A stretch of DNA of 62,639 nucleotides, counting the filler, from Asterionella formosa (Eukaryota): assembly GCA_002256025.1 (NCBI GenBank). It is 11 parts of 11 records of this genome, joined end to end, with 100 filler letters (N's around TTAATTAATTAA, not from the genome) between each part and the next. Parts side by side here need not be neighbours in the genome. Positions count along the whole stretch, not along the records: positions 34,242 to 39,844 come from NKIB01012993.1; 10 more parts are not named here. One strand, given 5' to 3'. Below are positions 5,610-61,030 of the stretch, piece by piece. Position 1 is the stretch's first letter, and every line of letters begins with the position of its first letter. Made by a program: the position numbers and the translations under genes. Under the pieces are notes generated by a model that did not search any database, was not told the DNA's origin, and saw only the letters and a list, made by a program, of their open reading frames with translations.

Positions 5610-5709
5610 NNNNNNNNNNNNNNNNNNNNNNNNNNNNNNNNNNNNNNNNNNNNTTAATTAATTAANNNNNNNNNNNNNNNNNNNNNNNNNNNNNNNNNNN
5701 NNNNNNNNN
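5610..5709. other. Artificial contig linker. The same linker occurs at 11319-11418, 17027-17126, 22733-22832, 28439-28538, 34142-34241, 39845-39944, 45545-45644, 51244-51343 and 56943-57042
   Basis: Identical N44-TTAATTAATTAA-N44 with stops in all six frames. Contig lengths fall from 5609 to 5597. Confidence 0.99.
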
Positions 5710-10967: not shown

Positions 10968-13247
10968 CATCCAATCACCATGTTCTCTGTTTGCACATTG
11001 AGCCACATTAGAGCGCGATAGAACGTCGTCGTCCGTCAAAGTACCTTGTCCGGGTCGAATAAAGTCTAGTTGCTTTATGTGCTATCGTATGTAATCTTGT
11101 GATCGTCGCACCGACAGCCGTTCGCAGCTTGATTTGCTTCCCAGTGGCTGTGCCTAAACGATGTAGAACCGAAATATTATTTTCGACGAAAACATTTCCT
11201 GATAGAAAAAGGTATTAATCTGCGAAGTCGATACTCCCGAGTCGAAAGTTGCAGTCGATTACTGCTCGACATAGCGATGCTCACATCGTACATGTTCACT
11301 TGATAGGAATAATACCGTNNNNNNNNNNNNNNNNNNNNNNNNNNNNNNNNNNNNNNNNNNNNTTAATTAATTAANNNNNNNNNNNNNNNNNNNNNNNNNN
11401 NNNNNNNNNNNNNNNNNNTTCAGTGATATCATGCATGGGATACATGAATCCTGCTATGCAATTGGAATATCCCACATTACAGAAAATGGGCGGTATCCAG
11501 ACTGTAATTATCCTGTAAATAACAAATGATATCCACTTGATGACTGACATGAGACATATTCAATGTTTTGTCATGTAAATATAATAATAGCATTGCTATT
11601 GTTGCACTTGTGCAATCTGTTCAGCATTCGGCTGGTTTTTGTTAGGCACATAGGCCACTAGCTGACCAACAGGAGGGTTCATGAACACTAAAATTTCCTG
11701 AGCAGATTCATAAAAATCGGCAGGTATGGCCCTTGACACAGTATCCTAACTAGACATCGTCATAGGGTTAACCCATGGATTTGTAGGAAAAATGTATGCA
11801 AGGCAGAAAAGATGAATAGGGTTAGCTGTGTCAGTATGATAATTCGCTCTGTGTAGAATTTTTACGCAAGAGGAACAGTACGTGGGTTAGCAGTGTAAGT
11901 ACTAGTGTTAGTAGTAAGATAACTTGAGGGGCCTTATGTTTAGCCGTTGGTTCACAACTGCATGCATGGCTGGCTGCAATCATGATTGCATGTGCGCTGC
12001 CACAACCGCTTTGTGTAAAAATATTGTGTACAATTTTTTTTAATTCACACACTTTTTTTCTTGATGCATTAAACAATCCGTCACGCTTGGTTTCTTGATG
12101 CATAATATGGTTGCCTTCAACTTTATTCATGGCATCATCAAAACTGTTATCGGAATGATCATCTGGGAGTACTTCAATGTTCATTCATTCGGACAAGGCG
12201 ATTTCTGTAAGGCACCTTTGGAGTAGAAAGAAGATACTTCGTGCTGGAGAGGTTAGGCAAGCAATGTTATGGAATAAACTCACAGTAATCAACAAAGCTT
12301 CCACGAAGTTCCATGAATCTCATCTTGCTTGCTTGCTTGAAAGACTCAAGATGTCGAACTGGTATGAATGAATGAAAGGTGTTATTCTTGATGTTTAGTA
12401 GATTGAAATCCTAGATCAATGGGACCACTGGGACTTGAGAATACATCAACGTTGTTAATTCTAATTTGACTCTTTTTGAATTCAAAGTGAAGTATCTAAC
12501 TATAAGTAGTAGTATTTGTTGAATATCTTATTTGTTAATTCTTGTGTGCAACTCGATCTCCTCGGTTGACACTAAAGTATACAAGAAGGTGTTAGTCGTT
12601 CTCTCCTGATAGAACTCTGATATATCTATGTAAACCTAACCTTATAGGTATATCTGTAGTTGAGCGAGATCGCTCACCAGGTAACTTGTAGTCTACCTGG
12701 TATTCCGAGTACCTGGTTCTCCTGGTAGTGTCACGTGAAACTGACGCGAAATGGTACCTGGTACCTGTTTTTAGGTTCAATACTTACTAACTATTAGGGG
12801 GAGAGATTCCTGAAGGAAATACACGACCAAGGGTCGAGACTGCCTGCGAGTATTCTTGTGTTCGAGGCTTGGGTGGCGCGAGTAGGTTGACCGAACAAGT
12901 GGCGCCCCCGGCACTGCAAGAAGGTCGACCTGCGAGGGCCTCCCAAGCCAAGTACACAAGATTACGAGTAGGCAGACTCCTCCTTAGTAGGGTATTACCT
13001 AGTAGGCAATTCACAAACTAGCTATCGGCGCGCTTTTCGCCACTACATTGCCCTTTCAGTTAACATTGAAAACCTATTCTAGATAGTTTGTATGTTGGAT
13101 GCGAACTAGCCAATTGCCCATCATATAAAACATATATTGCATATTTCATATGTACAGTTTTTGGATTACTCAATCCTGCAATTGCCCATCATATAAAACA
13201 TATGTTGTATATTTCATATGCTCCGTTTTTCGACTGCCAAACTAGTA

Positions 13248-15460
13248 CAGTGAAACCTCCCTATAAGATACAGCCTGTTTGCTCCTACATTTATGGCCTT
13301 TTCGTATCCTATAGGGAGGTGTATATAATAAGGATGAGGTTCAGCAAGTTTACGCTGTTTTGTACTCCATATGTACTACAGTACCAGGTTACATAATATG
13401 TACAATATGCATAGACCAAGGCAGGGTTGTTTAATCCAATTATTTGCAGTTTGTTTTAAAAACATTGATTTTTATTTGGAAGAAGAAAAAAGATTCAATT
13501 GGAGGTTGAATAAGCCTAGAATGAGACCTTTTTTGAACAGTGGCAATTATTTCAAGAAATGGAAGTTCCTGCTCAAATAAATCCATTTTGTTTACATACA
13601 TACATCAGTGCTGTTTCTAAACCAAGCAATGCATTTCTTGAGGTATAGGAACCTTATTGGACACATCACTGATTGCTGCCGTAGCACTGCCTTCGTCCAA
13701 GGCACTGTCATCCTCCTCATCCCCTTCATCAATATATTCAGCAACCAAATTTGCAATCAAAGATTCAGCACATGGGATTGCATATTCACCAATACAATCT
13801 TGTACATAATGAATATCAACTTCCCCAAGCCTCTCCATCAGCTCCTCCACTTCAGTTTCAGTTTCCTCTGGTACTGATACACATTCTTCATCACATACTT
13901 GTTTAAACCCACATGCTTTAAAGCATTTTTTAATTGTTTCAGTCATGACACTTCCCCAGGATGTAGCCATAAACTTCAATGCATCAATAACCTGCAATTT
14001 CTTAGCCAGATCTGCTGCATGTTCTTCCATTTCGATAAATTGTAATAACTGCAAAACTTGATGCTTACAGGAGAGAGCTTTCACACTTCTAATGATTCCA
14101 GCATCCAAAGGTTGCAACAAATTTGGAGGGAAAAATTGAATCTTTACATGTGTTAGCCTTGAGCTTCTTGTCTCCTCATCAACAATGTGTACAGGGGCGT
14201 TATCCAAGAATAAAAGAATCTTCCTGTTCTGAGAAGCCATGTATGCATTCAAATCCAAAAGATACTCATTAAAATAGGATTTGTCATCCAAGCTTTACTA
14301 CTTGACCTGTACACAACTACAAGGCGGCTCAAATCAATGTTTCGAAAACAACGAGGCTTCTTGGATTTCCCAATTATGAGCGGCTGCAGCTTTTCCCCAG
14401 CTGCACTGCATGTCAAGGCAACTGTAACTCGATCCTTAGCTAATTTTCCTCCTTTGCATGATTTTGATACTTGATTGAGAGTTGAATTTGGGAGAGCATG
14501 ATAAAAGTATCCAGTCTCATTCATCTTGAAAATGTTGGCTGGAGTATATTCATCACACAAACTAGCCAAGAAAGCTTTCCAATCTTCAGCCTTATCAATG
14601 TCTACATTCCCAGACTCTCCACAAATAGCATAGGATTTGAAATTGTGTCTCTTCTTCCATTTTTCTAGCCAGCCATTAGATGCCTTAAAATTATGATCTT
14701 GCTTAAATGCTTTGGCAATCGACAAAGCTTTGCTTTGTAGGATGGGTCCACTAATTGGATATCCAGTTGCGCAAGCAGTGCAAAATCATCTCCACAATAC
14801 TGTGTTGATTTCTGTACCAGTATTAAGGCAAGCCATTTTCATGGATCGCATCGATTTTCCTTCCATCAGTAAGTCGTCCTGCTTTTTCTTTGCTTTTTGA
14901 ACAGTTCCAATGCTTATGCCAAGTTGAAAAGCAACTTCTCTAACACTTTCCCTTCACCAAGAAGCTTTATTGCCGCTAACTTTGTATTGATGGAAACACT
15001 TTTACGCTTTAACTTCATTTCCGACATGCTTGTCACAACTCCTTCAGTTACCAATGGCGATGATGTCTGAGTCTTGGAGATTGTAATAAGTGAAAGAATT
15101 GAAGCAAATGTTCAAGTAACAGTCAAGCTTCCTTTCTGTAAAGTATAACTAAAATTTATTATGAAAGGGTCATGAGCAAGTACTAATGTCACGAGTGGTG
15201 ATACTGCCACCAGATCATTGCTACCGGTACTAAGCAAGATGATGTGGTAGGTATTCTACTGACGCTTCTATTACTGTGCTTGCGTAAGCATGTATTTTTG
15301 TATGCGTAAGCATGAAGAATGATACTCCCAGTAGTACTGAAGATTGTCAGTCCACAGCAGTGATTTGAGATGATCAAAACATGCAAAACAAGGAAAAAAC
15401 TATTGGTGCAAACTGAGTGCAGACTGTCCGGTGCTCGTTTTTATCTTATACCGAGGTCAG
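13248..15460 (-). mobile_element. pogo/Tigger DNA transposon, decayed
   Basis: TA|CAGTGAAACCTCCCTATAAGATAC terminus at 13248 with an inverted subterminal copy at 13304-13320; related TATCTTATACCGAGGT near 15442. The second full TIR was not found. Confidence 0.75.
13617..15027 (-). pseudogene. Tigger/CENP-B-type DDE_1 transposase pseudogene
   Basis: FKASNGWLEKWKKRH, GESG, NETG, KGGKLAKDRVT, SKAWMT, LFLDNAPVH and LQPLDAGII motifs spread across frameshifted ORFs. Confidence 0.9.
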
Positions 15461-30894: not shown

Positions 30895-32754
30895 TCAGAC
30901 ACCAAAATCTGCAGGGACTGAACCAGCAAATAAATTGTTGCTCAATGATAGTTTTTTGAGAGTTGTGTCAAGTCCAGGCCATATCTCAGCTGGCACTGTT
31001 CCTGTGAATGTATTATTGGACAAATCTAGAGAATTGAGACTTGTCAAGAGTCCAATCTCTGAGGGAAGTGAGCCAGTGAAAGTATTGATGTGAAAAGATA
31101 AAGAAGATAGACTTGTCAAAAGTCCAATCTCTGTTGGAAGTGTGCCATTGAAGGTATTGATGCCCAAATATAGATCAGTGAGACTTGTCAAGAGTCCAAC
31201 CTCTGTGGGAAGTGTGCCATTGAAAGTATTGTAAGACAAATCTAGATAATTGAGACTTGCCAAGAGTCCAATCTCTGTGGGAAGTGTGCCAGTGAAAGTA
31301 TTGTAGGACAAAGATAGACCAGTGAGTCTTGTCAAGAGTCCAATCTCTGTGGGTAGTGTGCTAGTGAAAGTATTGGAGAAAAAAGATAGAACTGTGAGAC
31401 TCATCAAGTGTCCAATCTCTGTGGGAAGTGTGCCAGTGAAAAAATTGTAGGAAAAATCTAGATGAGTGAGACTTGTCAAGTGTCCAATCTCTGTGAGAAT
31501 TGTGCCACTGTATTTATTCTGGTTCAAATTTAGATAATTGAGACTTGTCAAGAGTCCAATCTCTGTTGGAAGTGTGCCAGTGAAAGTATCAGACAAATCT
31601 AGAGTAGTGAGACTTGCCAAGATTCCAATCTCTGGCGGAAGGGATCCATTAATTTGAGAAGAATCAGGGTACAAAAATGTGATATCATTCCCATCATTGC
31701 AACGAATGTAATCCCATTTACAAAAATCGTATTTAGAAACAGTTCCATTATCTTGTAACCATGATTGGTTTGAAAGAAGATCACCAGTCGCATAATTGAA
31801 GACTGCCAATGCAAAAAATTGTGACAAAGTATAGTCTCTGACACTATTATATAATGGCGACTGCTCCAACCATGTCAGTGCCTTTTGTTGTGAGGAGCCA
31901 GTAGTTGAAAGTGCTGTTCCATTATCCCGTGATTTTTCAGCCAAGAACAAAAACAAACTTTGAGACGGGCTTGCTGATGGAGATTCTGATGGAGCCAATG
32001 TTTTGAGTAATGGTTCTGGTTTTGTGAGCTGAATGGGAATAGCAATGATGGCAAGTAAGATGCCAATCACCAAAATAATCACCAAGGTATTTCTCAGTTG
32101 ACGCCGACACTGTGCTTTTCCTTCTGCTTCATGGTCAATAATAGAGGCATTGGCAATTTCTGGATCATCGACAAGAACAGCATTGAATAGTGTTGCAGGT
32201 TCCAGCTGTTCATGTTCATCCTGAACCTCGTTGGTGGCAAGAGCAGTGGCGACATGCAAAAAGAAATCATCGCGTGGAATGACTGCTGGTCCTCTTACTG
32301 AAAATGCACCAGGACGACCTTGCAGCAGTGATGATTCTGTCACAACATCTCGAGGTGAAACTGCTCTTGATAAGACGGCTGGAACAAATATATCAGACGA
32401 ATCGTTGTCAAATTGAGGCACAACTGCGTGTATCTCCTGCCATGTAGTGTTGGCTTCCTGGTCTCGTTCTTCCACTTTCGCCTCCTCTGCAAACGGGATT
32501 TCTTTGCTGGATCCAACATAATTTTCTTTCCTGGCTTCTTGAAGGAGCATTGCTACCGAATCCTCTAATGCAGTGGCTTCCATCTCTTCCTCTTTGGCCT
32601 CTTCTGCAAACCGATGAGCATTGATGAGAGCTTTCGAATGAGTTCCTTCTTGGAGAGTCGCTTCATTGGAACCTCCACTGTAAAGGTCGTTGGGTGCCTT
32701 CTTCTTCCCTCCTCCTGTATCATCATTCTTCTTGTTATTGTTGCTTGACGACAT
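30895..32754 (-). CDS. Type II membrane LRR protein (about 10 plant-type 24-aa LRRs)
   Basis: Acidic N-terminus with PGAFSV, TM helix, S/P stalk, SSQQKALTW...CKWDYIRC N-cap, GTLPTEIGLLTSL repeats, EIWPGL cap. Confidence 0.9.
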   Translation of the reverse strand: MSSSNNNKKNDDTGGGKKKAPNDLYSGGSNEATLQEGTHSKALINAHRFAEEAKEEEMEATALEDSVAMLLQEARKENYVGSSKEIPFAEEAKVEERDQEANTTWQEIHAVVPQFDNDSSDIFVPAVLSRAVSPRDVVTESSLLQGRPGAFSVRGPAVIPRDDFFLHVATALATNEVQDEHEQLEPATLFNAVLVDDPEIANASIIDHEAEGKAQCRRQLRNTLVIILVIGILLAIIAIPIQLTKPEPLLKTLAPSESPSASPSQSLFLFLAEKSRDNGTALSTTGSSQQKALTWLEQSPLYNSVRDYTLSQFFALAVFNYATGDLLSNQSWLQDNGTVSKYDFCKWDYIRCNDGNDITFLYPDSSQINGSLPPEIGILASLTTLDLSDTFTGTLPTEIGLLTSLNYLNLNQNKYSGTILTEIGHLTSLTHLDFSYNFFTGTLPTEIGHLMSLTVLSFFSNTFTSTLPTEIGLLTRLTGLSLSYNTFTGTLPTEIGLLASLNYLDLSYNTFNGTLPTEVGLLTSLTDLYLGINTFNGTLPTEIGLLTSLSSLSFHINTFTGSLPSEIGLLTSLNSLDLSNNTFTGTVPAEIWPGLDTTLKKLSLSNNLFAGSVPADFGV

Positions 32755-34241: not shown

Positions 34242-35594
34242 TTCAACAGTTAAATTTTCATATCGATGCATCCTCTTGTATGCTATGCCGCCTCTTGTTC
34301 ATTATATGCATGAGTTCTATATATTCATCATCGTCGGTCACTGACCATGTCGACTTTCATCTCATCTCCTGATGATGATGATGATGACATTATGATCACA
34401 TTGCTACTGTTAGCAATGTGCTATCCACCAGTAAATAGGACGCCATCATTCAGGGAAAGTTTGACTGTTGATGAGGTCAGAAGAAGAAGTGGCAAAATCC
34501 GTCGCCACGCACTACAGCATCCATTATCGAGTCCATTCTGGACTTTGTTCAACAGCAAGCATGATGATGCTCTGATTACCTTGTGTGGGTTTGACCATGC
34601 TTCTTTCGAGCTCCTACACCAGCTGTTCAAACCTTGTTTTTATTCCTTCACTCCCTGTAGGAAAAATACGGATTTCATTGTTAGAAATTCAACAACAAAG
34701 AAAGGTCGGCAAAGATACCTCTGTTCCATCAGTTGTCTAGCGCTTTCGGCGAAGTGAAGGTCCTGTCCGTTCTTTGTCTGGGAAATTCTCGTTGTGCTGT
34801 GATGCAACAACTTCCCATTCATGGGACCCAATTGGCAGGTGAGTAGAAATGGTTTCCAGCAATGAGAGAATCTCATTGATCCTGAACTGTTGACCCCGAC
34901 TCTGCATGCTTTGGCGAGCTCTTGGAAACGTTGGTGCTCGCCTGGCAGTTGCCGTTCTTGAAACTGAACTATTAGGAGCACGTGAAAAATCGTTGTTTTT
35001 CCTTGATGGGGACTGAGTAACCCCAGAAACACCAATCTGAGAAACACCTGGGACACCCATCCTACTGTCCTCATCGTCACTGGCAAACTCATCAGCACCA
35101 GTGTCATCTTCATTCTCATCGTTGTCCTCCTCCTCTTCTTCTGGTTGAGTCTGTTCTTGTTGTTCTTGTTGCTGGTGACGGCGACGTTCAAGCAGCCTTG
35201 GAGAGGAAGGGAAGCCCTCCCTGGCTGCTCTCCTTTGACCAGAAGAAGATGAAGACATGGCCGAAATCTAAAAGCAATGACGATCGATTTATTGAGGAGG
35301 TTGATTGATATGTAACGATATGCATATGCATATGCATACCCATTTTGGCACGAGCAAGCCATTTTGAGTATGAGCAAGCAAGTCTTGAAATATTCTGGGA
35401 AATTCTATATAGTCATTCATGTCTAAACATCTTTTTATATAATGCACTGTCATTTATAACTGTAAAAAATTTGTGTTTGTGTTGACCAAATTTGGTAATC
35501 CTGGTAAGCACCCAACAAATTTTGGGGTTATGGGTACAACGATTTGTGTTATAATACACGTGATATAATAATTTTTTATTATCAGAGTGCGCCC
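34242..35594. mobile_element. Internally deleted PIF/Harbinger: transposase N-terminus (+, 34347-34740) fused to convergent Myb-like gene (-, 35258-34740)
   Basis: Both ORFs are cut at the same junction near 34740. Right terminus ...GAGTGCGCCC at 35594 is homologous to the 18865 end. Confidence 0.75.
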
Positions 35595-35804
35595 AATATC
35601 ATTTTTGTTTCTTTCAAATGGAACTCTATCAATCTGGTGCTGATTCCTTTTGAATTCGAATATTCAAATGGACACTCAAATCATGGGAGTTCTTAGTAGA
35701 AAACTCCCTATTTCACCCTGCTTTACAACCCTAACCCTAACCCTAGCGATATTCTCTCCAAACTAGGGTTAAGCCGGGGCCACAAACTTTAATGATTACC
35801 GGTA

Positions 35805-36360
35805 TATAGTACCAACTTCATGACTTGATTCTTCATGATTTACAGAACCAATTTCATGACTTGATTCTACATCATTAACTGCGTACCCCATCTTTAACAT
35901 GAATTGATTCTGCATTATTTACTACATATCAACTTCATGACTTGATACGTGCCAAATTCATGACTTAATTCTTCATGACTCACTATGTATCAACTGCATA
36001 ACTTGACTCTTCATGATTTACTGGCTTGATTCTCAATGATTTGCAGTACCAACTTCACGACTTGATTCTCCATGATTAATATTACCAACTACATGACTTG
36101 ATTCTCCATGATTAATATTACCAACTACATGACTTGATTCTCGCTGATTTTCAGTACTAACTACATGACTTGATTCTTCATGATTTACAGTACTAACTTC
36201 ATGACTTGATTTATTGCGTGACCCATCTTAAACATGACTTGATTCTTCATGATTTACGTACCAACTTCATGTTTTGATTCTTCATGATTTACTATGTACT
36301 TACTTCATGAGTTGATTCTTCATGACATATTACGTGCGCACCATCGTCATGCCTTGATTT
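35805..36360 (+). repeat. Minisatellite of about 36 bp (TACCAACTTCATGACTTGATTCTTCATGATTTACAG), roughly 15 degenerate copies
   Basis: Tandem periodicity directly visible. Confidence 0.9.
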
Positions 36361-36559
36361 TCAGCAGGCAGGTGCAAGAATAAACTATCGGTAATCCTGT
36401 ATTTCTACTCTACATACAGTAATGAGAATTTTTTGCTTATTCTGTTACAAAAAATACACACGTGATGCTTTCATATGCTGTTTATAAATCAAATCCATTC
36501 TGCCTATAAGTTTGAAACAGTCTGTAAAGAAAAAGAACATCTGAGAAAACAAAACTCAA

Positions 36560-38563
36560 ATGAATATTAGAAACACAATCATTGATGTGGCATTGGCCCT
36601 ACTCTTGGCTCAAGCTACTGCAAAACAAAAGTTGGTAAGTTCAATATTATACTTTATTTCTTTTTACTGTCAGTTTGCCAAAACAAGAATTAACATTCTT
36701 TGTGGTTTTCTTGTCTAGCCCATGATCAAGCCAACCGTCAAGCCAACTAGGTTTCCTACCTTCCGGCCCACAAGCAAACCAACCACCAAGCCAACCAAGT
36801 TTCCTACTGTCAAGCCAACGAAAGAGCCAACAAGGGTTCCTACCATCAAGGCAACAACAAAGCCAACTAGTTTTCCTACCATAAAGCCTGAGAGCAAGCC
36901 AACTAGGTCACCTACCATCCAGCCCACAAACTCCAGCTCGCTTCAAAGTTTGTTTTTGTTTTTTTCTGGACATTCAATGGACAATGGAACAGCACTTTTA
37001 ACTCCTGGCTCCTCACAGCAAAAAGCATTGGCATGGGTGCAGACTTCAACAAGACTATATAATAGTACCAGAGACTATATTTTGTTGCAATACTATGCCT
37101 TGGCTGTGATATATTATTCAGCTGATTCTGATACTCAATCTGATTTGCGAAATTGGTTGACAATTGGATATCAATTTTGTGACTGGTTGTCTGTTGGCTG
37201 CAATAACAAAAGGACAGCTATCACCTCAATTCTGCTAGATACTGTTCCTTTTTATTTTGATGGATCCATTCCGCCGGAGATTGGATTGCTGACAAGTCTC
37301 ACTGGTCTAGGCTTGTCTGACAATACTTTTAAAGGGACACTTCCCACAGAGATTGGACTCTTGACAAGTCTCACTTATCTTTTGTTGAACTCCAATGATT
37401 TTACTGGCACACTTCCCACAGAGATTGGACTCTTGACAAGTCTCACTGATCTATATTTGTACAACAATCATTTCAATGGTACACTTCCCACAGAGATTGG
37501 ACTCTTGGACAGTCTCAAGGAAATAAATTTGTACGGAATGGGTTTCATAGGCACACTTCCCACAGAGATTGGACTCTTGAAAAGTCCCACTTCTCTTTTG
37601 TTGGACTTCAACTCTTTCACAGGTACACTTCCCACAGAGATTGGACTCTTGACAAGTCTAACATATCTATCTTTGAATAGCAATACTTTCAAAGGCACAC
37701 TTCCCACAGAAATTGGATACTTCACAAGTCTCACGCGTCTGTTCTTAGGCCCTAATATCTTCACTGGCACACTTCCCACAGAGATTGGACTCTTGACAAG
37801 TCTCGATACTCTATATTTGTCTTACAATACTTTCACTGGCACACTTCCCACAGAGATTGGACTCTTGACAAGTCTCACTGAACTACATTTGGACAACAAT
37901 CATTTCAATGGTACAATTCCCACAGAGATTGGACTCTTGGCAGGTCTTTTTATTCTAAATTTGGACAGCAATGGTTTCAATGGTACACTTCCCACACAGA
38001 TTGGACTCTTGACGAGTCTTGAATATCTATCATTGATTTCCAATACTTTCAGAGGCAAGGTTCCCACAGAAATTGGACTCTTGAAAAGGCTTAATTATCT
38101 TTTACTCACTTATCTTGGTTTTGACTCCAATGCTTTCACTGGCACATTTCACACAGAGATCGGAAGTTTGAAAAGTCTTACTATTCTATCTTTGAGCTCC
38201 AATACTTTCAATGGAAAACTTCCCTCAGAGATTGGACTCTTGACAAGTCTGCTTTATTTAGATTGTTCATTTAATTCATTCTCAAATACATTGCCAGCTG
38301 AGATATGGCCTGGACTTGGCTACAGTCTCCAAACACTAAAATTGAGCAACAATTCTTTTGCTGGTAATGTACCTGCAGATTTTGATTTTCCTGGTTCATG
38401 TGGCAATGGTCAAGTAGGCAATGGAAAGTGCTCAAATCCCAAAGTTTGTTGCAGCATTTTTGGTTGGTGTGCCATTGGTCATGCCTGGTGTTCAGGTGAT
38501 TTCTCCCTTCGTGGAGGAAGGCTCAACTCTATGGTGGCAGTTAATTCCACCGGAGCAAACTAG
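36560..38563 (+). CDS. Secreted LRR protein: signal-peptide exon (36560-36634), intron 36635-36718, PT-rich stalk, about 15 LRRs, C-terminal hevein/CBM18-like chitin-binding domain
   Basis: MNIRNTIIDVALALLLAQATA signal; GTAAGT...TCTAG phase-0 intron in frame; PTxKPT repeats; CGNGQVGNGKCSNPKVCCSIFGWCAIGHAWC. Confidence 0.88.
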
Positions 38564-38789
38564 AAATCTGTTAGGGATATGGCAAAGGGACAACGCCTCT
38601 ATTTAGGGTTAGGGCAAAGGGACGACTCCTCTAGGCGCCATCCCTATAGAGCATCCAGCCCCATTGGGGCTGGGCATGTATCTGTAGCGCACAGTATGAA
38701 GAATTTATAGATGGAAACTGGTATGAGAATGAATGTGTTAGTATCGGTCTTTTTTGTTGGATATGAAGATGATGTAGAAGTGCACTGTG

Positions 38790-38813
38790 TTAGGGTTAGG
38801 GTTAGGGTTAGGG
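38790..38813 (+). repeat. Interstitial telomeric (TTAGGG)4; also (TTAGGG)2 at 38603-38614
   Basis: Direct sequence. Confidence 0.95.
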
Positions 38814-38871
38814 TATGTGTGAGGGCTACAATGACTATTATCCAAGCGACGATGGGGTGACTACTTAAGTT

Positions 38872-38928
38872 GCCAAAAAGTAATGAGACTAATGTTACTT
38901 TTCGCCTGAAGGGGCTTCATCAGTTGGC
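38872..38928 (-). ncRNA. Type I hammerhead ribozyme
   Basis: Minus strand GCCAA CUGAUGA a GCC ccuuca GGC GAA A AGUAA cauuagucuca UUACU U U UUGGC. All core nucleotides and stems I, II and III are present. Confidence 0.85.
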
Positions 38929-38951
38929 TTGAATCTGTAGTCTTGTTTTAT

Positions 38952-39780
38952 TTAAGTCATGGTGTGTGCGGGGGGTTGGGCAGGTGTGGTTGGCTGTGAA
39001 ATTACACCAGGAGTGGAGGCTGTATTGATAGTAGGAGGGGAAGGTAGCATGGACCTCGTAGAGGTTGATGTATCCCGTGTAGTATCAAGTTGTATCGTAA
39101 GTAAGTGAGTACTTACTGAAGTGGTGTCCGATCTTAATTTCCGTGGTGATGTATAATTCCCAATGTTTTTAGGGCGATTATAAGCGATTATCAACCGTTG
39201 AATGGTACATAGTTTTCCGGAGAAGTTCCGTAGGGTGGTAAGAATTGGTTCTTTACCCGGGGAGAGTATAGTGTCTCTGAAAATTTGTTGAATGTAAGAT
39301 GAGGGGGGATTGTTCGGATGAAATGGCATGTGGAGGAACACGCATTGTTCTGTATGTGTGTCTGTTCTCTGAGTGGCCGTGTTGGTTTTGTTCGATTTGT
39401 TAACATATAGCTGTTTGATGTATGTGTTAAAAATGGGTAAAAGGGTTTTATCCGAATAACCTCGGACTTGTAGGCGTTTGTAAAAAGAATGGATTGCAGT
39501 TTTGAAATGTGTGTCAATTGTTGTTAGATGGTAGATCCGGTGAATCATTCCAGCGATAAGACCGCGAAGGACACCAGGAGGGTGTGCACTATGTTGTGGT
39601 ATATAGAGATAGGGATTCAAGGATTTTTCAAAAAGTGTCGTATCAATAGAACGGGTATGTTTATTGATAGAGATTGTGAGATCCAGGAAAGTTGTAGATA
39701 ACTGTCGTGGTTCTGCATTCCATTTAAGTATGCCAAAGGTATTCATCGAGTTGAGAAACGAGTTGTGTGTTTTGTTATCT
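38952..39780 (-). mobile_element. 5'-truncated endonuclease-deficient Penelope-like retroelement (RT thumb/C-terminus)
   Basis: FLDLTI...LFEKSLNPYLYIPQHSAHPPG...LQVRGY and IAYNRPKNIG motifs; no GIY-YIG domain. Frame is open up to the telomere junction. Confidence 0.85.
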
Positions 39781-39844
39781 GGTTAGGGTTAGGGTTAGGG
39801 TTAGGGTTAGGGTTAGGGTTAGGGTTAGGGTTAGGGTTAGGGTT
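39781..39844 (+). repeat. Terminal telomeric array (TTAGGG)n
   Basis: About 10 perfect repeats running to the contig end. Confidence 0.95.
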
Positions 39845-41591: not shown

Positions 41592-43885
41592 GTCTGCAAA
41601 TAAAAACTATCATATTTCCATGATGCATCATAGGATTGTGATCATCTGATCATAATTTTTCGTTATATCATCTAATACTTTTGATAAATGCCTTTGTAAT
41701 TTAAATAGTAACCCTTTTGACTACATATATTTAATTATTATATCAATTGTTTCTATTTGATTCCTGTATTCGAATTTCTTGGTAGGATAATGTACCAGTT
41801 CAAGTAATGTAATTTTGCTCGTCATTTCTATCCGTCATCACTCCGATTTTTGCAACAACAACGAAATACTAGCAATGACAAGCGGAATGACTGTTTGCGA
41901 TAACGTCTTCAATTTATTGGTCAAGTGATCTTTATATCTTCGAGTAATCGTCATGTGCAGTGAACCTTTGTTCATAATCATTCAATTAAGAGTTTACAGG
42001 AGAGAAGAAACCATTCGAACTCGTAATGTTTCCGCACACAGCGCACAAAGTATATCCGTTTCGTCCACTTCAGCATGACAATCTCGCCAATCAACCCGTA
42101 AACAAACACATTCTACCGGTACTTGTTCTCGTTGACATTTTCAATTCTCACATGATACTACATCTACTATTGAGATTCAGCATAGAAAGAGATAAGAAAA
42201 TGTGCGTAACAGACTACTGTCCACATAGCTATAGTTATAGAATGATTCTGATTAGAATGTATTTCATTTTCATATCGCTCGCTCGTTTCTGCATTTGGTA
42301 TACTGTACTTGAATTAACTATTGAACTTGTCCGCATCTTTGATACCATCAAGCAAGAGAGCGAAAGCAAGTGGCTCTTTTCATTATTGTTTGCTCGTTGG
42401 AAGAATTTGATATCTGTCTCGTCATTTGCTTGTTGGAATTGTCCGTTGCCTCAAACTTGCTTGGCGTGTGCGTGCACACACTGTCGACTTGTTTACAATG
42501 GTATGTTGTTCTTGTATTCACTGTTGAACATGTCCGCATCTTTGTTACCATCAGTAGAGCGACAAGTGGGTCTTTTCATTGTTGTTTGCTCCTGTAAAAG
42601 TCGGTGTCCGTGTCATCCTCATCAAAAGAGAGACAAGTTCTTTCGTTGGAAAAATTGGTACCGTATCATCATTCTCTCGTTCAAACCACTGTCCGTTGCC
42701 TCAAACCTGATTAGCGTTTGAGTACCAGTACCCGGTATGTGCACTGTCGACTTTAGTACATTACAGGCGGAGTGACTTTGCTACTAAATTGCGTGATATT
42801 ATAATATACCCTGTACCGGTAGCACGATGCAGAATACAGTTGCTTCCCAATCATCTCATCATGATTGATAAGATGATACTGTGATATCATGATAAGGTTA
42901 CATCGATACATACATCACCAAAGTATGATACGTAATATTGAATAAAGTACATCACATAGCTATGATACATTGATCATAAAATTATGATGATTTTATGAAA
43001 TGTATACGATATAATTTTGATCAAAATATGATCATGTAAAAATAGTACAATGACAATAAAATACAATAAAATATGTACGCAAGTGTTACCAAGACATCAT
43101 AGAATATAAATAAAGCAATCATAAAGTATGTTAATTAATATATATGTTTGTCGTTTAATATATACAGTTAAAGTCAACAGTTAATATGATAGTATTATAC
43201 AGTGGATAGGATCTAAGTATACGGATGCGTTGATATGTACATCACTATAATATGATTTGTGATATGGATTGATGCATATCACATACCGGTATCCTCAACA
43301 ACCGGCCATCACATTAATTGTCATGTCGTCTTTCCTTGTCTTAGCTATATATATGCCGGCATGTGTATTGTGTAAACACTACGCTGGCGGAACATTGATA
43401 TTACGCTGTGCTCTGTTCAACAATTACTACACTCGGTTACCATCACACCAGTTCCATCTCCACAAGCACTGCAATAAGCTCCATGAAAAGCTCCGCGTTT
43501 CCCTTCCACTGTTTTACATCATTGTCTTCTGGCCCTTCGACAACTTTCCAAATGGCATTTCATGGATTTCATGGAAAGGATCAGTCAAACAAGAAACGAG
43601 ACTTACTTCCATTGTTTACACTACACGACTTTATGTTTTCGGAAAAGAAGATGAAGAAAGTTATGAAATCAATCGAAGATTCCTTTGAATACACTCAAAG
43701 ATCAAATGAATTTGAACAGATTCATAATACTCCAGAAAAAATAATGAAGTATGCTGATACAATAGTGGCTGAGATTGAAAAGAAGGAAAGATTGCTTTTG
43801 AAGAGGAAACCCAAACAGTTGGTCTTCGTGGATGAAGACTCTATTCATACAGAGTCACAGTTCCACCATCCAGTGTCGTATTTTA
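41592..43885 (+). mobile_element. CGTCTG-TIR element (end B) with protease-gene 5' region, truncated at the junction with an LRR gene
   Basis: GTCTGCAAATAAAAAC terminus; 42300-43885 is the reverse-complement homolog of about 49555-51090. Confidence 0.7.
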
Positions 43886-45544
43886 CTCAATCTCTGTGGG
43901 AACTGTGCCAGTGAAAGCATTATTGCTCAATCCTAGACCAGTAAGACTTGTCAAGAGTCCAATCTCTGTTGGAAGTGTGCCAGTCAAATTATTTTTGCCC
44001 AATCCTAGATCATTGAGACTTGTCAAGAGTCCAATCTCTGTGGGAAGTGTGCCATTGAAAGCATTGATGCTCAATTCTAGACCAGTGAGAGTTGTCAAGA
44101 GTCCAACTTCTGTGGGAAGTGTGCCAGTGAAAGCATTGATGCTCAATTCTAGACCAGTGAGACTTGTCAAGAGTCCAACTTCTGTGGGAAGTGTGCCATT
44201 GAATGCATTGATACTCAATCCCAAACTGGTGAGCTTTCTCAAGAGTCCAATCTCTGTGGGAAGTGAGCCTGTGAAAGCATTGAGGCTCAAATCTAGATGA
44301 GGAAGACTTGTCAAGAGTCCAATCTGTGTGGGAATTTTTCCAGCAAAAGTATTGTTGCCCAATCCTAGATGATTTAGACTTGTCAAGAGTCCAATCTCTG
44401 TGGGAAGTGTGCCAGTGAAAGTATTGATGTACAAATATAGACCAGCAAGCTTTGTCAAGAGTCCAATCTCTGTGGGAAGTGTTCCATTGAATATATTGTC
44501 ATACAAATATAGTGTAGTGAGATTTGTCAAGAGTCCAATCTCTGTGGGAAATGTGCCAGTGAAAGTATTGCTGGACAAACCTAGATCAGTAAGACTTGTC
44601 AAGAGTCCAATCTCTGTGGGAAGTGTTCCATTGAATTTATTGTCATACAAGTATAGTGTAGTGAGACTTGTCAAGAGTCCAATCTCTGTGATAAGTGTAC
44701 CTGTGAATGTATTATCATACAATGGTAGAGAAGTGAGACTTGTCAAGAGTCCAATCTCAGGGGGAAGGGATCCAACAAGTTGAGAAGAAGAAGGGTTCAA
44801 ATCTGTGATATCTGTCTGACTGTTACAAATAATGAAGTTCCATTCACAAAAATTGTATTGAGGAAAAGTTCCATTATTTTGCAACCATGATTTGCTTGAA
44901 ATTGTTTCGCCAGTTGCATAATAAAAAACCGCCAAGGCATAGAATTGCAACACAATATAGTCTGTGGTAATATTAAATACTGACGACTGTTCCACCCATG
45001 TCATTGCCTTTTGCTGTGAGGATCCATTAGTTGAAAGTGCTGTTCCATTATCAAAGGAATGATCAGCCAAGAACCCAAACAAACGTTTAGAAGGGCTTGC
45101 TGATGGATTATTTGATGGTGCCAATGATGAGATACTGGATGGATTTTCTGATGGTGCCAATGATGAAATAATGGATGCATTTTCTGATGGTGCCAATGAT
45201 GGAATACTGGAGGAATTATCTGATGGTGGCAATGATAGAATACTAGAACCTGTTGGTGGTGATGTAGGAAAAGGTGTTGATTCGGGGTTTTTTTGGCTTT
45301 TAATCATGAAAAAAACAATAATGTACACAATTATGCCGATCACCACAGTTGTTGCCAAGACTACTATCATTTGACGTCGACACTGGGATTTTCCTTCTGC
45401 TCTCTGGTCAACAATAAAGGCACTTGCAATTTCAGGATCATCCACAAGAATAGCATTGAGCATTGTTGCTTGTTCCAGCTGGCCATTTTCATCCTGCACC
45501 TCGTTGGTGGTGAGAGTGGTGTTGACATGCAAAAAGGTATCATC
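43883..45544 (-). CDS. Type II membrane LRR protein (12 LRRs), 5'-partial, C-terminal cap replaced by transposon sequence
   Basis: Paralog of 30895-32754 (NEVQDE...VDDPEIA...CRRQ-TM, SSLAPSEN 33-nt repeats, LRRs). Stop codon supplied by transposon DNA. Confidence 0.85.
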   Translation of the reverse strand, partial: DDTFLHVNTTLTTNEVQDENGQLEQATMLNAILVDDPEIASAFIVDQRAEGKSQCRRQMIVVLATTVVIGIIVYIIVFFMIKSQKNPESTPFPTSPPTGSSILSLPPSDNSSSIPSLAPSENASIISSLAPSENPSSISSLAPSNNPSASPSKRLFGFLADHSFDNGTALSTNGSSQQKAMTWVEQSSVFNITTDYIVLQFYALAVFYYATGETISSKSWLQNNGTFPQYNFCEWNFIICNSQTDITDLNPSSSQLVGSLPPEIGLLTSLTSLPLYDNTFTGTLITEIGLLTSLTTLYLYDNKFNGTLPTEIGLLTSLTDLGLSSNTFTGTFPTEIGLLTNLTTLYLYDNIFNGTLPTEIGLLTKLAGLYLYINTFTGTLPTEIGLLTSLNHLGLGNNTFAGKIPTQIGLLTSLPHLDLSLNAFTGSLPTEIGLLRKLTSLGLSINAFNGTLPTEVGLLTSLTGLELSINAFTGTLPTEVGLLTTLTGLELSINAFNGTLPTEIGLLTSLNDLGLGKNNLTGTLPTEIGLLTSLTGLGLSNNAFTGTVPTEIE

Positions 45545-60968: not shown

Positions 60969-61030
60969 GGGGAATGGCTTAGTGGTTAGCACACTTCATG
61001 AGGTGGCAGGTTCGATTCCTGCATTCTCCA
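60969..61030 (+). pseudogene. tRNA-Ala-like pseudogene or tRNA-derived element with shortened anticodon arm
   Basis: Acceptor stem GGGGAAT/ATTCTCC+A, A box TGGCTTAGTGG, T arm GCAGGTTCGATTCCTGC, downstream T run; only 62 nt. Confidence 0.65.

What the first reader, a model, noticed from the sequence alone, without database searches (positions are those of the whole stretch)
38872..38928. Unannotated variant type I hammerhead ribozyme in the 3' UTR of the telomeric retroelement
Seen, 24 nt after the RT stop on the same strand: stem I GCCAA/UUGGC, core CUGAUGA, an extra A before a 3-bp stem II GCC/GGC, GAAA, a 6-bp stem III with an 11-nt loop, and a UUU cleavage triplet. Known: PLEs carry hammerheads, usually minimal ones with a very short stem III; GUC/GUA triplets are typical; an extra A after A9 occurs in the CChMVd viroid hammerhead. 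Inference: this one could fold as a monomer, and self-cleavage would cut about 60 nt upstream of the RNA's CCCUAA tract, possibly controlling telomere priming.
Basis: partly seen in the sequence, partly recalled or inferred. Interest (0 to 1): 0.7.

Follow-up and report, generated by a model that had tools for sequence, protein, structure and literature searches.

The report
Hammerhead ribozyme in a telomeric retroelement
This is a genuine, conserved hammerhead ribozyme motif at the tail of a telomere-attached Penelope-like retroelement of a freshwater alga; such elements were already known to carry one, so it is a new member, not a new kind.

Summary
The motif is there exactly as described (minus strand 38928..38872, predicted cut 38877|38876). 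It is not a chance match. No strict hit appeared in 100 shuffles. A covariance model built only from 26 related metagenome loci finds it as the single significant hit in the window (34.1 bits, E 9.5e-8). The same type I hammerhead lies on the RT sense strand in 53 of 80 related loci, 47 of them 3' of the RT stop and none antisense, with strong covariation in all three helices.

The features called "variant" are family norms. An inserted A after A9 occurs in 33 of 49 distinct sequences and U at the cleavage site in 45 of 49. All have a real helix III of at least 3 bp, 6 bp here.

The published work already covers this kind. [quoted passage not shown]

New details here are that no Rfam 15 model detects this clade, that helix I is bipartite, and that a conserved GGAUAA box lies between ribozyme and telomeric tract. 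Cleavage and its role remain untested.

Verdict: real, new member of a known kind, moderate interest.

The parts
39781..39844 (-). (CCCTAA)n cap, about 10 repeats, running to the natural end of this contig. On the + strand it is (TTAGGG)n pointing outward, so it is telomere-like.
   Evidence: The window is 11 contigs sorted by length and joined by N44-TTAATTAATTAA-N44 spacers. This contig is 34242-39844.
38952..39780 (-). 5'-truncated C-terminal part of a Penelope-like reverse transcriptase (frame open from 39779; ATG-ORF 39746..38952). It corresponds to residues ~355/416-579/616 of 595-695 aa relatives. The last ~45-60 residues are not conserved.
   Evidence: RNA contigs of a 98.5% identical copy continue 231 nt beyond 39779 where the window has telomeric repeats.
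38937..38942 (-). Distal helix Ib, 5' strand (GACUAC), separated from helix Ia by an 8-nt internal-loop strand (38936-38929).
38872..38928 (-). Type I hammerhead ribozyme motif: helix Ia, CUGAUGA, inserted A, helix II, GAA, helix III, U17, helix Ia 3' strand.
38876..38877 (-). Predicted self-cleavage site (3' of U17 = 38877; the 3' product would start at 38876).
   Evidence: Inferred from hammerhead numbering applied. Not tested experimentally.
38859..38864 (-). Distal helix Ib, 3' strand (GUAGUC), after a 7-nt internal-loop strand (38871-38865).
38838..38843 (-). Conserved GGAUAA box between ribozyme and telomeric tract.
   Evidence: An exact GGATAA lies 17-52 nt (median 28) after the ribozyme in 29 of 52 distinct downstream regions, against 63 of 3499 background 70-nt windows.
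38790..38813 (-). (CCCTAA)4: reverse-complement telomeric repeats at the element's 3' junction, the inferred annealing site for the G-rich telomere overhang.
   Evidence: The same layout is seen in L061: ribozyme, 54 nt, then telomeric repeats to the contig end.

Best explanation
It is a bona fide type I hammerhead ribozyme motif. It belongs to the 3'-terminal module of an endonuclease-less, telomere-attaching Penelope-like retroelement (Athena/Coprina type) of a freshwater alga.

The module reads, 5' to 3' on the element RNA: RT stop, bipartite helix I with the hammerhead core, a GGAUAA box, then the (CCCUAA)n tract.

Shown:
- All invariant core nucleotides are present.
- The three helices covary across about 50 related elements at the same position and on the same strand.
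- The copy in the window is 5'-truncated, bounded by telomeric repeats on both sides, sits at a contig end, and is oriented as expected if the G-rich telomere overhang primed reverse transcription on the CCCUAA tract.
- A 98.5% identical, longer copy with an identical ribozyme is present in RNA libraries.

Inferred:
- The RNA cuts itself 3' of U17 (38877|38876) as a monomer.
- This cut trims read-through or head-to-tail multimeric transcripts, giving a unit RNA whose 5' end starts 63 nt before the telomeric tract.
- The RNA that actually serves as template must be uncut (or re-ligated) at its own 3' ribozyme, because cDNA primed on the CCCUAA tract has to cross the cleavage site to copy the ribozyme and the RT gene, as it did in this copy.
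- In that uncut form the folded ribozyme, together with the GGAUAA box, probably acts as the landmark that presents the telomeric tract to the overhang and to the RT.
For: Motif and chance:
- Motif read; 0 of 100 shuffles give a strict hit.
- The leave-window-out model R2 gives 34.1 bits, E 9.5e-8.

Family:
- Model R1 finds 54 matches at E<=0.01 in the window plus 80 related loci, and all 53 in loci are on the RT strand. 27 of the 54 rows are the model's own seeds; 27 are not.
- 47 of 80 loci have the motif 108-865 nt (median 278) after the RT stop. 6 more have it upstream, from a preceding unit.
- Covariation on 58 rows (53 distinct): 92.4% of cells paired against 62.2% shuffled; 130 double-change cells against 37.8; 0 of 500 shuffles reach the score; slid controls give 30-41% paired.
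- Core: CUGANGA in 38 of 49 distinct sequences, GAAA in 46 of 49, H17 never G.
- Bipartite helix I: the best distal helix averages 5.33 bp against 3.90 +/- 0.16 with mismatched flanks, maximum 4.33 in 300 permutations.

Element:
- Relatives carry DKNLGP and YIDD motifs.
- A predicted structure of relative P0003 (pLDDT 84.5) matches telomerase TERT chains best; ranks 1, 2 and 4-8 of the Foldseek PDB list are TERT.
- Telomeric repeats and orientation.

Expression:
- RNA contigs in runs X2 and X3 (one study) cover 38826-39779 and 38826-39456. No differences are listed inside 38826-38984, and X2 extends 231 nt past the truncation point.

Literature (passages read):
- PMC4209133: monomeric large-helix-III hammerheads in telomeric EN-less PLEs of fungi and protists; the Serpula lacrymans one cleaves at 0.16/min in 1 mM Mg2+.
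- PMC6431247 and PMC8557442: the hammerhead plus reverse-complement telomeric repeats forms the attachment module.
Against: - No cleavage was observed.
- No Rfam 15 hammerhead model matches the window (E<=10) or 11 related loci (E<=1).
- The nearest-neighbour MFE of the 57-mer is not the hammerhead fold (-10.3 against -8.1 kcal/mol; z -0.75). The same is true for all 29 family members tested, so this says little.
- RNA-library contigs span the predicted cut uncut in X2 and X3, and no contig ends at 38877/38876. Contigs cannot show ends, and DNA carry-over is possible.
- U17 and the inserted A are, from recall, not the fastest hammerhead variants.
- In the lizard PLE 'PAc', the hammerhead needed the element's protein to cleave, catalytic mutants did not affect insertion in vitro, and no RNA-seq ends mapped to the site (PMC11167929, passages read).
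- 12 related loci with at least 300 nt after the RT stop show no match at E<=0.01.
- 11 of 49 distinct relatives have changes at core positions 3/4, and 3 have G12 changed to A.
- The window copy is a dead, truncated copy.
Confidence: 0.62

Rival explanations
1. The hammerhead fold is kept mainly as a non-cleaving structural landmark. It is the 3'-terminal fold that the RT recognises and that holds the adjacent CCCUAA tract single-stranded for pairing with the telomere overhang. Cleavage is weak, protein-dependent or incidental.
For: - Every inserted copy, including this one, retains the ribozyme upstream of the junction repeats, so templates were uncut across the site.
- RNA-library contigs are continuous across the site.
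- PMC6431247 (passages) describes the ribozyme fold as exposing the telomeric repeats and calls cleavage 'auxiliary'.
- Some relatives carry changes at core positions 3/4 or G12.
Against: - The catalytic nucleotides, which are not needed for a mere three-way junction, are kept in most members whose RT proteins are only 27-45% identical: CUGANGA in 38 of 49, GAAA in 46 of 49, H17 never G.
- A fungal relative of this ribozyme type cleaves as a monomer in vitro (PMC4209133).
Confidence: 0.25
2. Cleavage at two successive ribozymes in a head-to-tail transcript releases a unit-length RNA with 5'-OH and 2',3'-cyclic phosphate ends. A host ligase circularises it. The telomere overhang primes on the single CCCUAA tract, and rolling-circle reverse transcription lays down tandem units.
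For: - Relatives occur as head-to-tail tandems: L041 and L042 lie on one contig, with ribozymes 4,670 nt apart and only ~110 nt between the ribozyme and the next ORF1 start.
- In 6 loci a ribozyme lies upstream of the element body.
- A re-ligated template would explain an intact ribozyme in inserted DNA.
- Circular RNAs from hammerhead retrozymes, and a link to PLEs, are proposed in PMC5680766 (passages) and in the 2026 bioRxiv preprint 10.64898/2026.07.22.740005 (listing and abstract start only).
Against: - No back-joined RNA was seen (table 5 lists no such joint).
- Successive end additions also give tandems.
- The window copy is a single truncated unit capped by telomeric repeats, as expected from linear, aborted reverse transcription.
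Confidence: 0.1
3. A chance hammerhead-like string with no function.
For: No Rfam hit. The MFE is not the hammerhead fold.
Against: 0 of 100 shuffles. The independent model gives E 9.5e-8. Position and strand are conserved in 53 of 80 related loci, with covariation.
Confidence: 0.01

Closest known systems
Type I hammerheads of telomere-associated, endonuclease-deficient PLEs of fungi and protists (Cervera & De la Pena 2014, PMC4209133: Serpula lacrymans; a variant in Thalassiosira oceanica)
   Same: - Same host element type, position in the flank and strand.
- Type I topology.
- A large, stable helix III allowing a monomeric fold.
- Helices I and II of variable size.
- A nucleotide inserted between positions 9 and 10.1, and a G10.1-C11.1 pair.
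   Different: I could not see their figures or sequences: the figures are not held, and the supplement text gave no hits. Direct sequence comparison was therefore not possible. The paper says there are 'no recognizable tertiary interactions' between helices I and II. Here helix I is bipartite, with an internal loop, in most of the family. U17 is nearly universal here (45 of 49).
Athena/Terminon 3' module of bdelloid rotifers (Arkhipova et al. 2017, as summarised in PMC6431247 and PMC8557442)
   Same: An EN-less PLE at chromosome ends, 5'-truncated copies capped by telomeric repeats, and a hammerhead followed by reverse-complement telomeric repeats at the 3' end.
   Different: - There the repeats, (ACACCC)n or (TCACCC)n, are said to lie immediately downstream of the ribozyme. 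Here 63 nt, including a conserved GGAUAA box, intervene, and the repeat is CCCTAA.
- Rotifer PLE hammerheads have a small palindromic helix III (PMC4209133).
- The 2017 paper itself was not held.
Minimal hammerheads in pLTRs of metazoan EN+ PLEs (Penelope/Poseidon, Cercyon; PMC4209133; PAc in PMC11167929)
   Same: PLE-borne type I motif, with the inserted nucleotide 5' of helix II.
   Different: Those have no helix III or a 1-2 bp helix III and are thought to work as dimers or with protein help. This one has a 6-bp helix III.
Rfam hammerhead families (Rfam release 15 hammerhead models)
   Same: The same catalytic core consensus and three-helix junction.
   Different: No match to any Rfam family at E<=10 around the motif, or at E<=1 in 11 related loci.
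CChMVd viroid hammerhead with an extra A after A9, and Schistosoma-type type I hammerheads with an internal loop in helix I (both recalled, not checked in any call)
   Same: An extra nucleotide between A9 and G10.1; an interrupted helix I that could dock on loop II.
   Different: Unrelated genetic context. No evidence here for a loop-loop contact.

Membership tests
Hammerhead ribozyme, type I | 5' core box C3-U4-G5-A6-N7-G8-A9 | tested here: met
   CUGAUGA at 38923-38917.
Hammerhead ribozyme, type I | 3' core G12-A13-A14 followed by an A15.1-U16.1 pair, and H17 not G | tested here: met
   GAA, then A paired to U38878, and U17 = 38877.
Hammerhead ribozyme, type I | G10.1-C11.1 pair directly flanking A9 and G12 | tested here: inconclusive
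   The G-C pair is present next to G12, but one A is inserted between A9 and G10.1. The same insertion is in 33 of 49 relatives and is reported as conserved in PLE hammerheads (PMC4209133).
Hammerhead ribozyme, type I | Three helices around the core, supported by covariation; helix I open | tested here: met
   92.4% paired; 7 of 9 modelled pairs show changes on both sides; 0 of 500 shuffles reach the score. Topology.
Hammerhead ribozyme, type I | Match to a curated Rfam hammerhead covariance model | tested here: not met
   no hammerhead hit for the window or for 11 relatives.
Hammerhead ribozyme, type I | Site-specific self-cleavage | not testable with these tools
   Only assembled contigs of RNA runs were available, and they cannot show RNA ends.
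PLE-associated hammerheads (Cervera & De la Pena 2014) | Lies in the flank of a PLE, on the sense strand of the RT | tested here: met
   23 nt lie between the ORF stop and the motif in the window. All 53 matches in related loci are on the RT strand.
PLE-associated hammerheads (Cervera & De la Pena 2014) | For fungal/protist EN-less elements: a large helix III compatible with a monomeric fold | tested here: met
   6 bp plus an 11-nt loop in the window; 3-7 bp in the 30 descriptor hits.
Endonuclease-less Penelope-like element (Athena/Coprina type) | PLE-type RT: DKG/DKN motif, RT1-7, thumb; telomerase-like fold | tested here: inconclusive
   The window copy keeps only the C-terminal ~40%. Full-length relatives (27-45% identical in that part) have DKNLGP and YIDD. 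The model of P0003 matches TERT best. The local Pfam gives no hit. No named PLE sequence was available for a tree.
Endonuclease-less Penelope-like element (Athena/Coprina type) | No GIY-YIG endonuclease domain | tested here: inconclusive
   Relatives are 595-695 aa and end ~50 residues after the thumb region. Pfam finds no GIY-YIG, but it finds no family at all in them.
Endonuclease-less Penelope-like element (Athena/Coprina type) | 5'-truncated copies at chromosome ends, bounded by telomeric repeats, with a 3' reverse-complement telomeric tract | tested here: met
   L061 shows a second such junction.

The most novel reading that the evidence does not exclude
Self-cleavage releases the downstream piece (helix-I strand, GGAUAA box, CCCUAA tract) as a short, dedicated template RNA. 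The element's telomerase-like RT then uses it to add TTAGGG repeats. This would be a ribozyme-processed, retroelement-borne 'mini telomerase RNA', with the conserved box 5' of the template acting like a template-boundary or RT-binding element. The perfect (CCCTAA)10 cap on the truncated copy would then not need host telomerase.
Probability: 0.05. Interest if true: 0.8.

Novelty: new member of a known kind. Interest (0 to 1): 0.36.

Why it matters
Penelope-like elements without an endonuclease are the closest relatives of telomerase. How their RNA is prepared and docked on chromosome ends is still unclear.

This locus gives a clean natural example in an alga: telomere, truncated element, ribozyme, conserved box, telomeric tract. 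About 50 comparative sequences come with it. Together they show that the ribozyme is under selection, define its clade-specific consensus (inserted A, U17, bipartite helix I), and reveal an extra conserved GGAUAA box.

No Rfam 15 model detected the ribozyme in the window or in the 11 related loci scanned, so annotation that relies on these models will probably miss ribozymes of this clade. The covariance model built here could help fill that gap.

The finding does not overturn anything. The kind of ribozyme and its association with telomeric repeats are already published.

Tried and rejected
- **Rfam.** At gathering threshold on the whole window, only a tRNA at 60969-61030. Rfam at E<=10 on 38600-39200 and at E<=1 on 11 related loci: no hammerhead family.
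- **Thermodynamic folding**. The hammerhead fold is never the MFE, in the window or in any of the 29 family members tested. This is uninformative for a junction whose core is not modelled.
- **Own genome.** Not held, so paralogous copies could not be compared. tblastn and blastn find only one copy in the window.
- **RT naming.** Pfam gives no family for the RT fragment or for three full-length relatives. A PDB sequence profile gives nothing relevant. The protein atlas was unavailable.
- **Earlier notes of this scan.** None.
- **Papers.** PMC1890498 (Gladyshev & Arkhipova 2007) and PMC5850863 (Arkhipova et al. 2017) are not held. The supplement text of PMC4209133 has no hit for diatom or protist names, and its file 1 was not searched. 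Their figures may show a near-identical diatom ribozyme that I could not see.
- **RNA ends.** All four runs laid were contigs. RNA contigs stop at 38826/38828/38858 next to the telomeric repeat, not at the cleavage site. This is no evidence either way on cleavage.
- **Copy number.** The summed contig depth of run X1 over the element (10^4-10^5 against ~400-600 in the flank; 761 pieces at 90-100% identity) hints at many copies, but it is not a copy number.
- **Hairpin at the GGAUAA box.** 19 of 29 can form at least 3 contiguous pairs, and the window copy only imperfectly. There was no proper control, so this is left open.
- **A pairing between loop 3 and the core** was considered by eye and dropped because it does not covary with N7.

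Full report
**What the window is.** The 62,639-base window is not one stretch of DNA. It is 11 contigs of 5,609 to 5,597 bases, in decreasing order of length, joined by N44-TTAATTAATTAA-N44 spacers. The finding lies in the seventh contig, 34242-39844.

That contig ends, on the + strand, in about ten TTAGGG repeats (39781-39844). The G-rich strand points outward, as at a chromosome end.

**Checking the observation.** Read on the minus strand, the layout is:

1. (CCCTAA)~10.
2. An open frame from 39779 to the stop at 38954-38952.
3. 23 nt.
4. The proposed ribozyme, 38928..38872.
5. 58 nt (38871..38814).
6. (CCCTAA)4 at 38813..38790.
7. Unrelated subtelomeric sequence, then the end of a leucine-rich-repeat gene on the other strand (stop at 38563).

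- Helix I of 5 bp.
- CUGAUGA, then one extra A.
- Helix II of 3 bp with a 6-nt loop.
- GAA.
- Helix III of 6 bp with an 11-nt loop.
- U at position 17, triplet UUU, and a cut between 38877 and 38876.

A strict version of the descriptor found nothing in 100 dinucleotide shuffles of the window on both strands. The loose version finds 0.49 per shuffle, and in the real window it finds one other poor hit at 15334-15444.

**The host element.** The frame 39779..38952 (P0001) has 34 relatives of 498-724 aa at E<=0.001 among longer proteins, all from metagenome or alga data. One is named by its source as from Cyclotella meneghiniana.

It aligns to residues ~355/416-579/616 of 595-695 aa relatives, so the window copy lacks the first ~60% of the protein.

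The evidence that the protein is a Penelope-like RT:

- The full-length relatives carry DKNLGP, upstream of RT motifs that include YIDD. The DKG/DKN motif is named as typical of Penelope-like elements in PMC8557442 and PMC13159263 (passages read).
- An AlphaFold model of relative P0003 (mean pLDDT 84.5) matches telomerase TERT chains best in the PDB. Foldseek ranks 1, 2 and 4-8 are TERT, with a retron RT at rank 3 and an R2 RT at rank 9.
- The local Pfam copy gives no family for these proteins, so absence of a GIY-YIG domain is only weakly shown. The proteins do end about 50 residues after the conserved thumb region.

With the telomeric repeats on both sides, and the orientation expected for priming by the G-overhang, this is an endonuclease-less, telomere-attaching Penelope-like element. 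It is truncated at its 5' end and capped by telomeric repeats.

RNA-library contigs of two runs (X2 and X3, one study) carry a 98.5% identical copy: 14 differences in 954 nt, none between 38826 and 38984. In X2 that copy continues 231 nt past 39779, where the window has telomeric repeats. A longer copy with an identical ribozyme therefore exists and is present in RNA libraries.

**Comparative test.** A scan of metagenome contigs with the protein alignment gave 445 confirmed relatives, of which 80 loci were kept (27-45% identity in the best segment).

The descriptor found a type I hammerhead in 30 of the 80, always on the RT strand and never on the other strand.

A covariance model (R1) was built from the window plus 26 of these motifs. 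It found 54 matches at E<=0.01: the window and 53 loci, all on the RT strand. 27 of the 54 are the seeds, which match by construction, and 27 are new.

Where the motif lies in the 80 loci:

| Loci | Position of the motif |
|---|---|
| 47 | 108-865 nt (median 278) after the RT stop |
| 6 | only upstream of the element body; their contigs end 2-113 nt after the stop |
| 27 | no match at E<=0.01 |

Of the 33 loci without a 3' match, 29 have less than 925 nt after the stop. 12 have at least 300 nt and still no match at E<=0.01; two of those have weak matches at E 0.018 and 0.026.

On the model-fitted alignment (58 rows, 53 distinct, including four rows weaker than E 0.01), the covariation figures are:

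| Measure | Observed | Control |
|---|---|---|
| Cells forming standard pairs | 92.4% | 62.2% after shuffling; 30-41% with partners slid |
| Cells changed on both sides | 130 | 37.8 after shuffling |
| Shuffles reaching the covariation score | 0 of 500 | |

That alignment leans towards the structure. As an independent check, a second model (R2) was built from the 26 relatives alone. It finds the window motif at 34.1 bits, E 9.5e-8; the next best match in the whole window is E 0.12. E-values of these models are rough.

**What is typical of the clade.** Among the 49 distinct sequences at E<=0.01:

| Feature | Count (of 49) |
|---|---|
| Position 17 | U 45, C 4 |
| Nucleotide after A9 | inserted A 33, inserted U 1, apparently none in the other 15 (14 GC, 1 GG) |
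| Triplet | GUU 24, CUU 15, GUC 4, UUU 3, AUU 1, gap at 16.2 in 2 |
| CUGANGA core | 38 |
| GAAA | 46 |

Eleven have changes at core positions 3 or 4. One example is CAGAAGA, which goes together with a GUC site. Three have G12 replaced by A.

The extra A and the U at the cleavage site are therefore not oddities of this copy. Only the U at 16.2 (hence UUU) is uncommon, and it is simply one half of a helix III pair.

**Two further features.**

*Bipartite helix I.* In the window, after an 8 x 7 nt internal loop, GACUAC (38942-38937) pairs with GUAGUC (38864-38859). Across 49 distinct members, the best helix within 9 nt of each side averages 5.33 bp. With flanks swapped between loci it averages 3.90 +/- 0.16, with a maximum of 4.33 in 300 permutations.

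*A GGAUAA box.* An exact GGATAA lies 17-52 nt (median 28) after the ribozyme in 29 of 52 distinct downstream regions, against 63 of 3,499 background 70-nt windows. In the window it is at 38843-38838. It can often form a small hairpin (19 of 29), but this was not properly controlled.

Telomeric 7-mers occur within 150 nt after the ribozyme in 6 of 52 regions. In L061 the ribozyme is followed after 54 nt by telomeric repeats that run to the contig end. Most other relatives have a short C-rich tract there, followed about 20-40 nt later by the start codon of the next unit's first ORF. One contig holds two units with ribozymes 4,670 nt apart.

**Negative and neutral results.**

- No Rfam 15 family matches the motif at E<=10, and none of 11 related loci gives a hammerhead match at E<=1.
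- Nearest-neighbour folding does not give the hammerhead fold as the minimum: -10.3 against -8.1 kcal/mol for the 57-mer and -16.9 against -14.8 for the 84-mer. The same holds for all 29 members tested. Folding programs do not model the core, so this says little.
- RNA contigs of X2 and X3 run uncut across the predicted site, and none ends there. Contigs cannot show RNA ends, and DNA may be present in such libraries.

**How it most likely works.**

Shown: the motif, its conservation and covariation, its place in the module, the telomeric context, and the presence of an identical copy in RNA libraries.

Inferred: self-cleavage 3' of U17 as a monomer. A fungal ribozyme of this type cleaves at 0.16/min in 1 mM Mg2+ (PMC4209133).

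One point follows directly from the sequence. cDNA synthesis primed on the CCCUAA tract must cross the cleavage site to copy the ribozyme and the RT gene. The RNA that gave rise to this copy was therefore uncut, or re-ligated, at its 3' ribozyme.

Cleavage therefore more plausibly serves to trim read-through or head-to-tail precursor transcripts at the upstream unit's ribozyme. That gives a unit RNA that begins 63 nt before a telomeric tract. The uncut 3' copy, with the GGAUAA box, would then present the tract to the overhang and the RT.

I give this 0.62. The identity as a real member of the PLE hammerhead group I put above 0.9.

The rivals:

| Rival | Confidence | Main support |
|---|---|---|
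| Mainly structural, non-cleaving landmark | 0.25 | In PAc, cleavage needed protein and was dispensable for insertion in vitro (PMC11167929) |
| Circular RNA and rolling-circle reverse transcription | 0.10 | Tandem units in relatives |
| Chance | 0.01 | None beyond the lack of an Rfam hit |

**Comparison with what is known.**

- Cervera & De la Pena 2014 (PMC4209133; abstract, section 7 and further passages read) report type I hammerheads with a large helix III, stable as monomers, in telomere-associated endonuclease-deficient PLEs of fungi and protists. [quoted passage not shown]
- PMC8557442 and PMC6431247 (passages read) describe the Athena/Coprina attachment module as reverse-complement telomeric repeats next to a hammerhead.
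- PMC13159263 (passages read) lists a Coprina element from the diatom Phaeodactylum.

The finding is therefore a new member of a known kind. What I did not find in the passages I could read:

- The near-universal U17.
- The bipartite helix I.
- The GGAUAA box.
- The failure of Rfam models on this clade.

I cannot claim that these are unpublished. The 2007 and 2017 primary papers were not held. The figures of the 2014 paper are not held, and its supplement text gave no hits. I ran no literature search for these four features: the three searches used only the terms hammerhead, Penelope-like, telomer, Terminons and diatom.

**Verdict.** Novelty is modest: a new member of a known kind, with some clade-level detail that may be new. 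Interest is 0.36.

Noticed in passing
window 1-62639 (spacers at 5610-5709, 11319-11418, and so on): The window is 11 separate contigs of 5,609-5,597 bases, sorted by length and joined by N44-TTAATTAATTAA-N44 spacers. Features must not be read across the spacers.
   Followed up: yes
window 38838-38843 (-) and 28 other distinct related regions (e.g. L041:4018-4023, L008:2905-2910): A conserved GGAUAA box lies 17-52 nt after the ribozyme in 29 of 52 distinct downstream regions (1.8% of background windows). It is often the 5' half of a small hairpin. Function unknown; possibly an RT-binding or boundary element.
   Followed up: partly
window 38570-38626 (-): Two stacked short fragments each end in GTCCCTTTGCC plus CCCTAA-type repeats, just beyond the stop of the LRR gene. 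38603-38661 and 38706-38743 are very high in summed contig depth in DNA run X1. They look like 3' ends of another telomere-targeting repeat added before the PLE copy.
   Followed up: partly
window 35728-35745 (+), 35785-36314: An interstitial CCCTAACCCTAACCCTA lies on the opposite strand to the terminal repeats. It is followed by about 15 copies of a 36-nt tandem repeat.
   Followed up: no
window 36722-38563 (+), 30895-32754 (-), 43883-45532 (-): Three paralogous leucine-rich-repeat genes with 72-nt (24-aa) repeat units lie on three different contigs. The one next to the telomere has a weak C-terminal chitin-binding match and an N-terminal PT repeat.
   Followed up: no
L020, L033, L030, L039, L051, L061, L034, L036, L037, L003, L011, L009, L025: A subset of related ribozymes has changes at core positions 3/4 (CAGAAGA, CCGACGA, TCGACGA, CGGATGA). 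CAGAAGA goes with a GUC cleavage triplet. Three others (L064, L073, L067) have G12 changed to A. These are either decayed copies or a tolerated core variant.
   Followed up: partly
L061:1742-1792 and 2765-2809: Telomeric repeats occur twice. One set lies about 90 nt after the conserved RT region of a first copy, with no ribozyme in between. The other follows a second, truncated copy with a ribozyme. This suggests stacked end additions, one of them started inside the RNA.
   Followed up: no
L041/L042 (one 8,945-nt contig): Two head-to-tail units with ribozymes 4,670 nt apart. A 752-aa first ORF starts about 110 nt after the ribozyme and precedes the RT ORF, so at least some relatives have two ORFs.
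   Followed up: partly
window 39512-39578: One DNA contig of run X1 skips 65 nt here (GT..AG on the + strand, which is the antisense of the element). This is a deletion variant among the copies (table 5).
   Followed up: no
window 60969-61030 (+): A tRNA match just above Rfam's gathering score (30.2 bits against 29), with a short anticodon arm region in the alignment.
   Followed up: no
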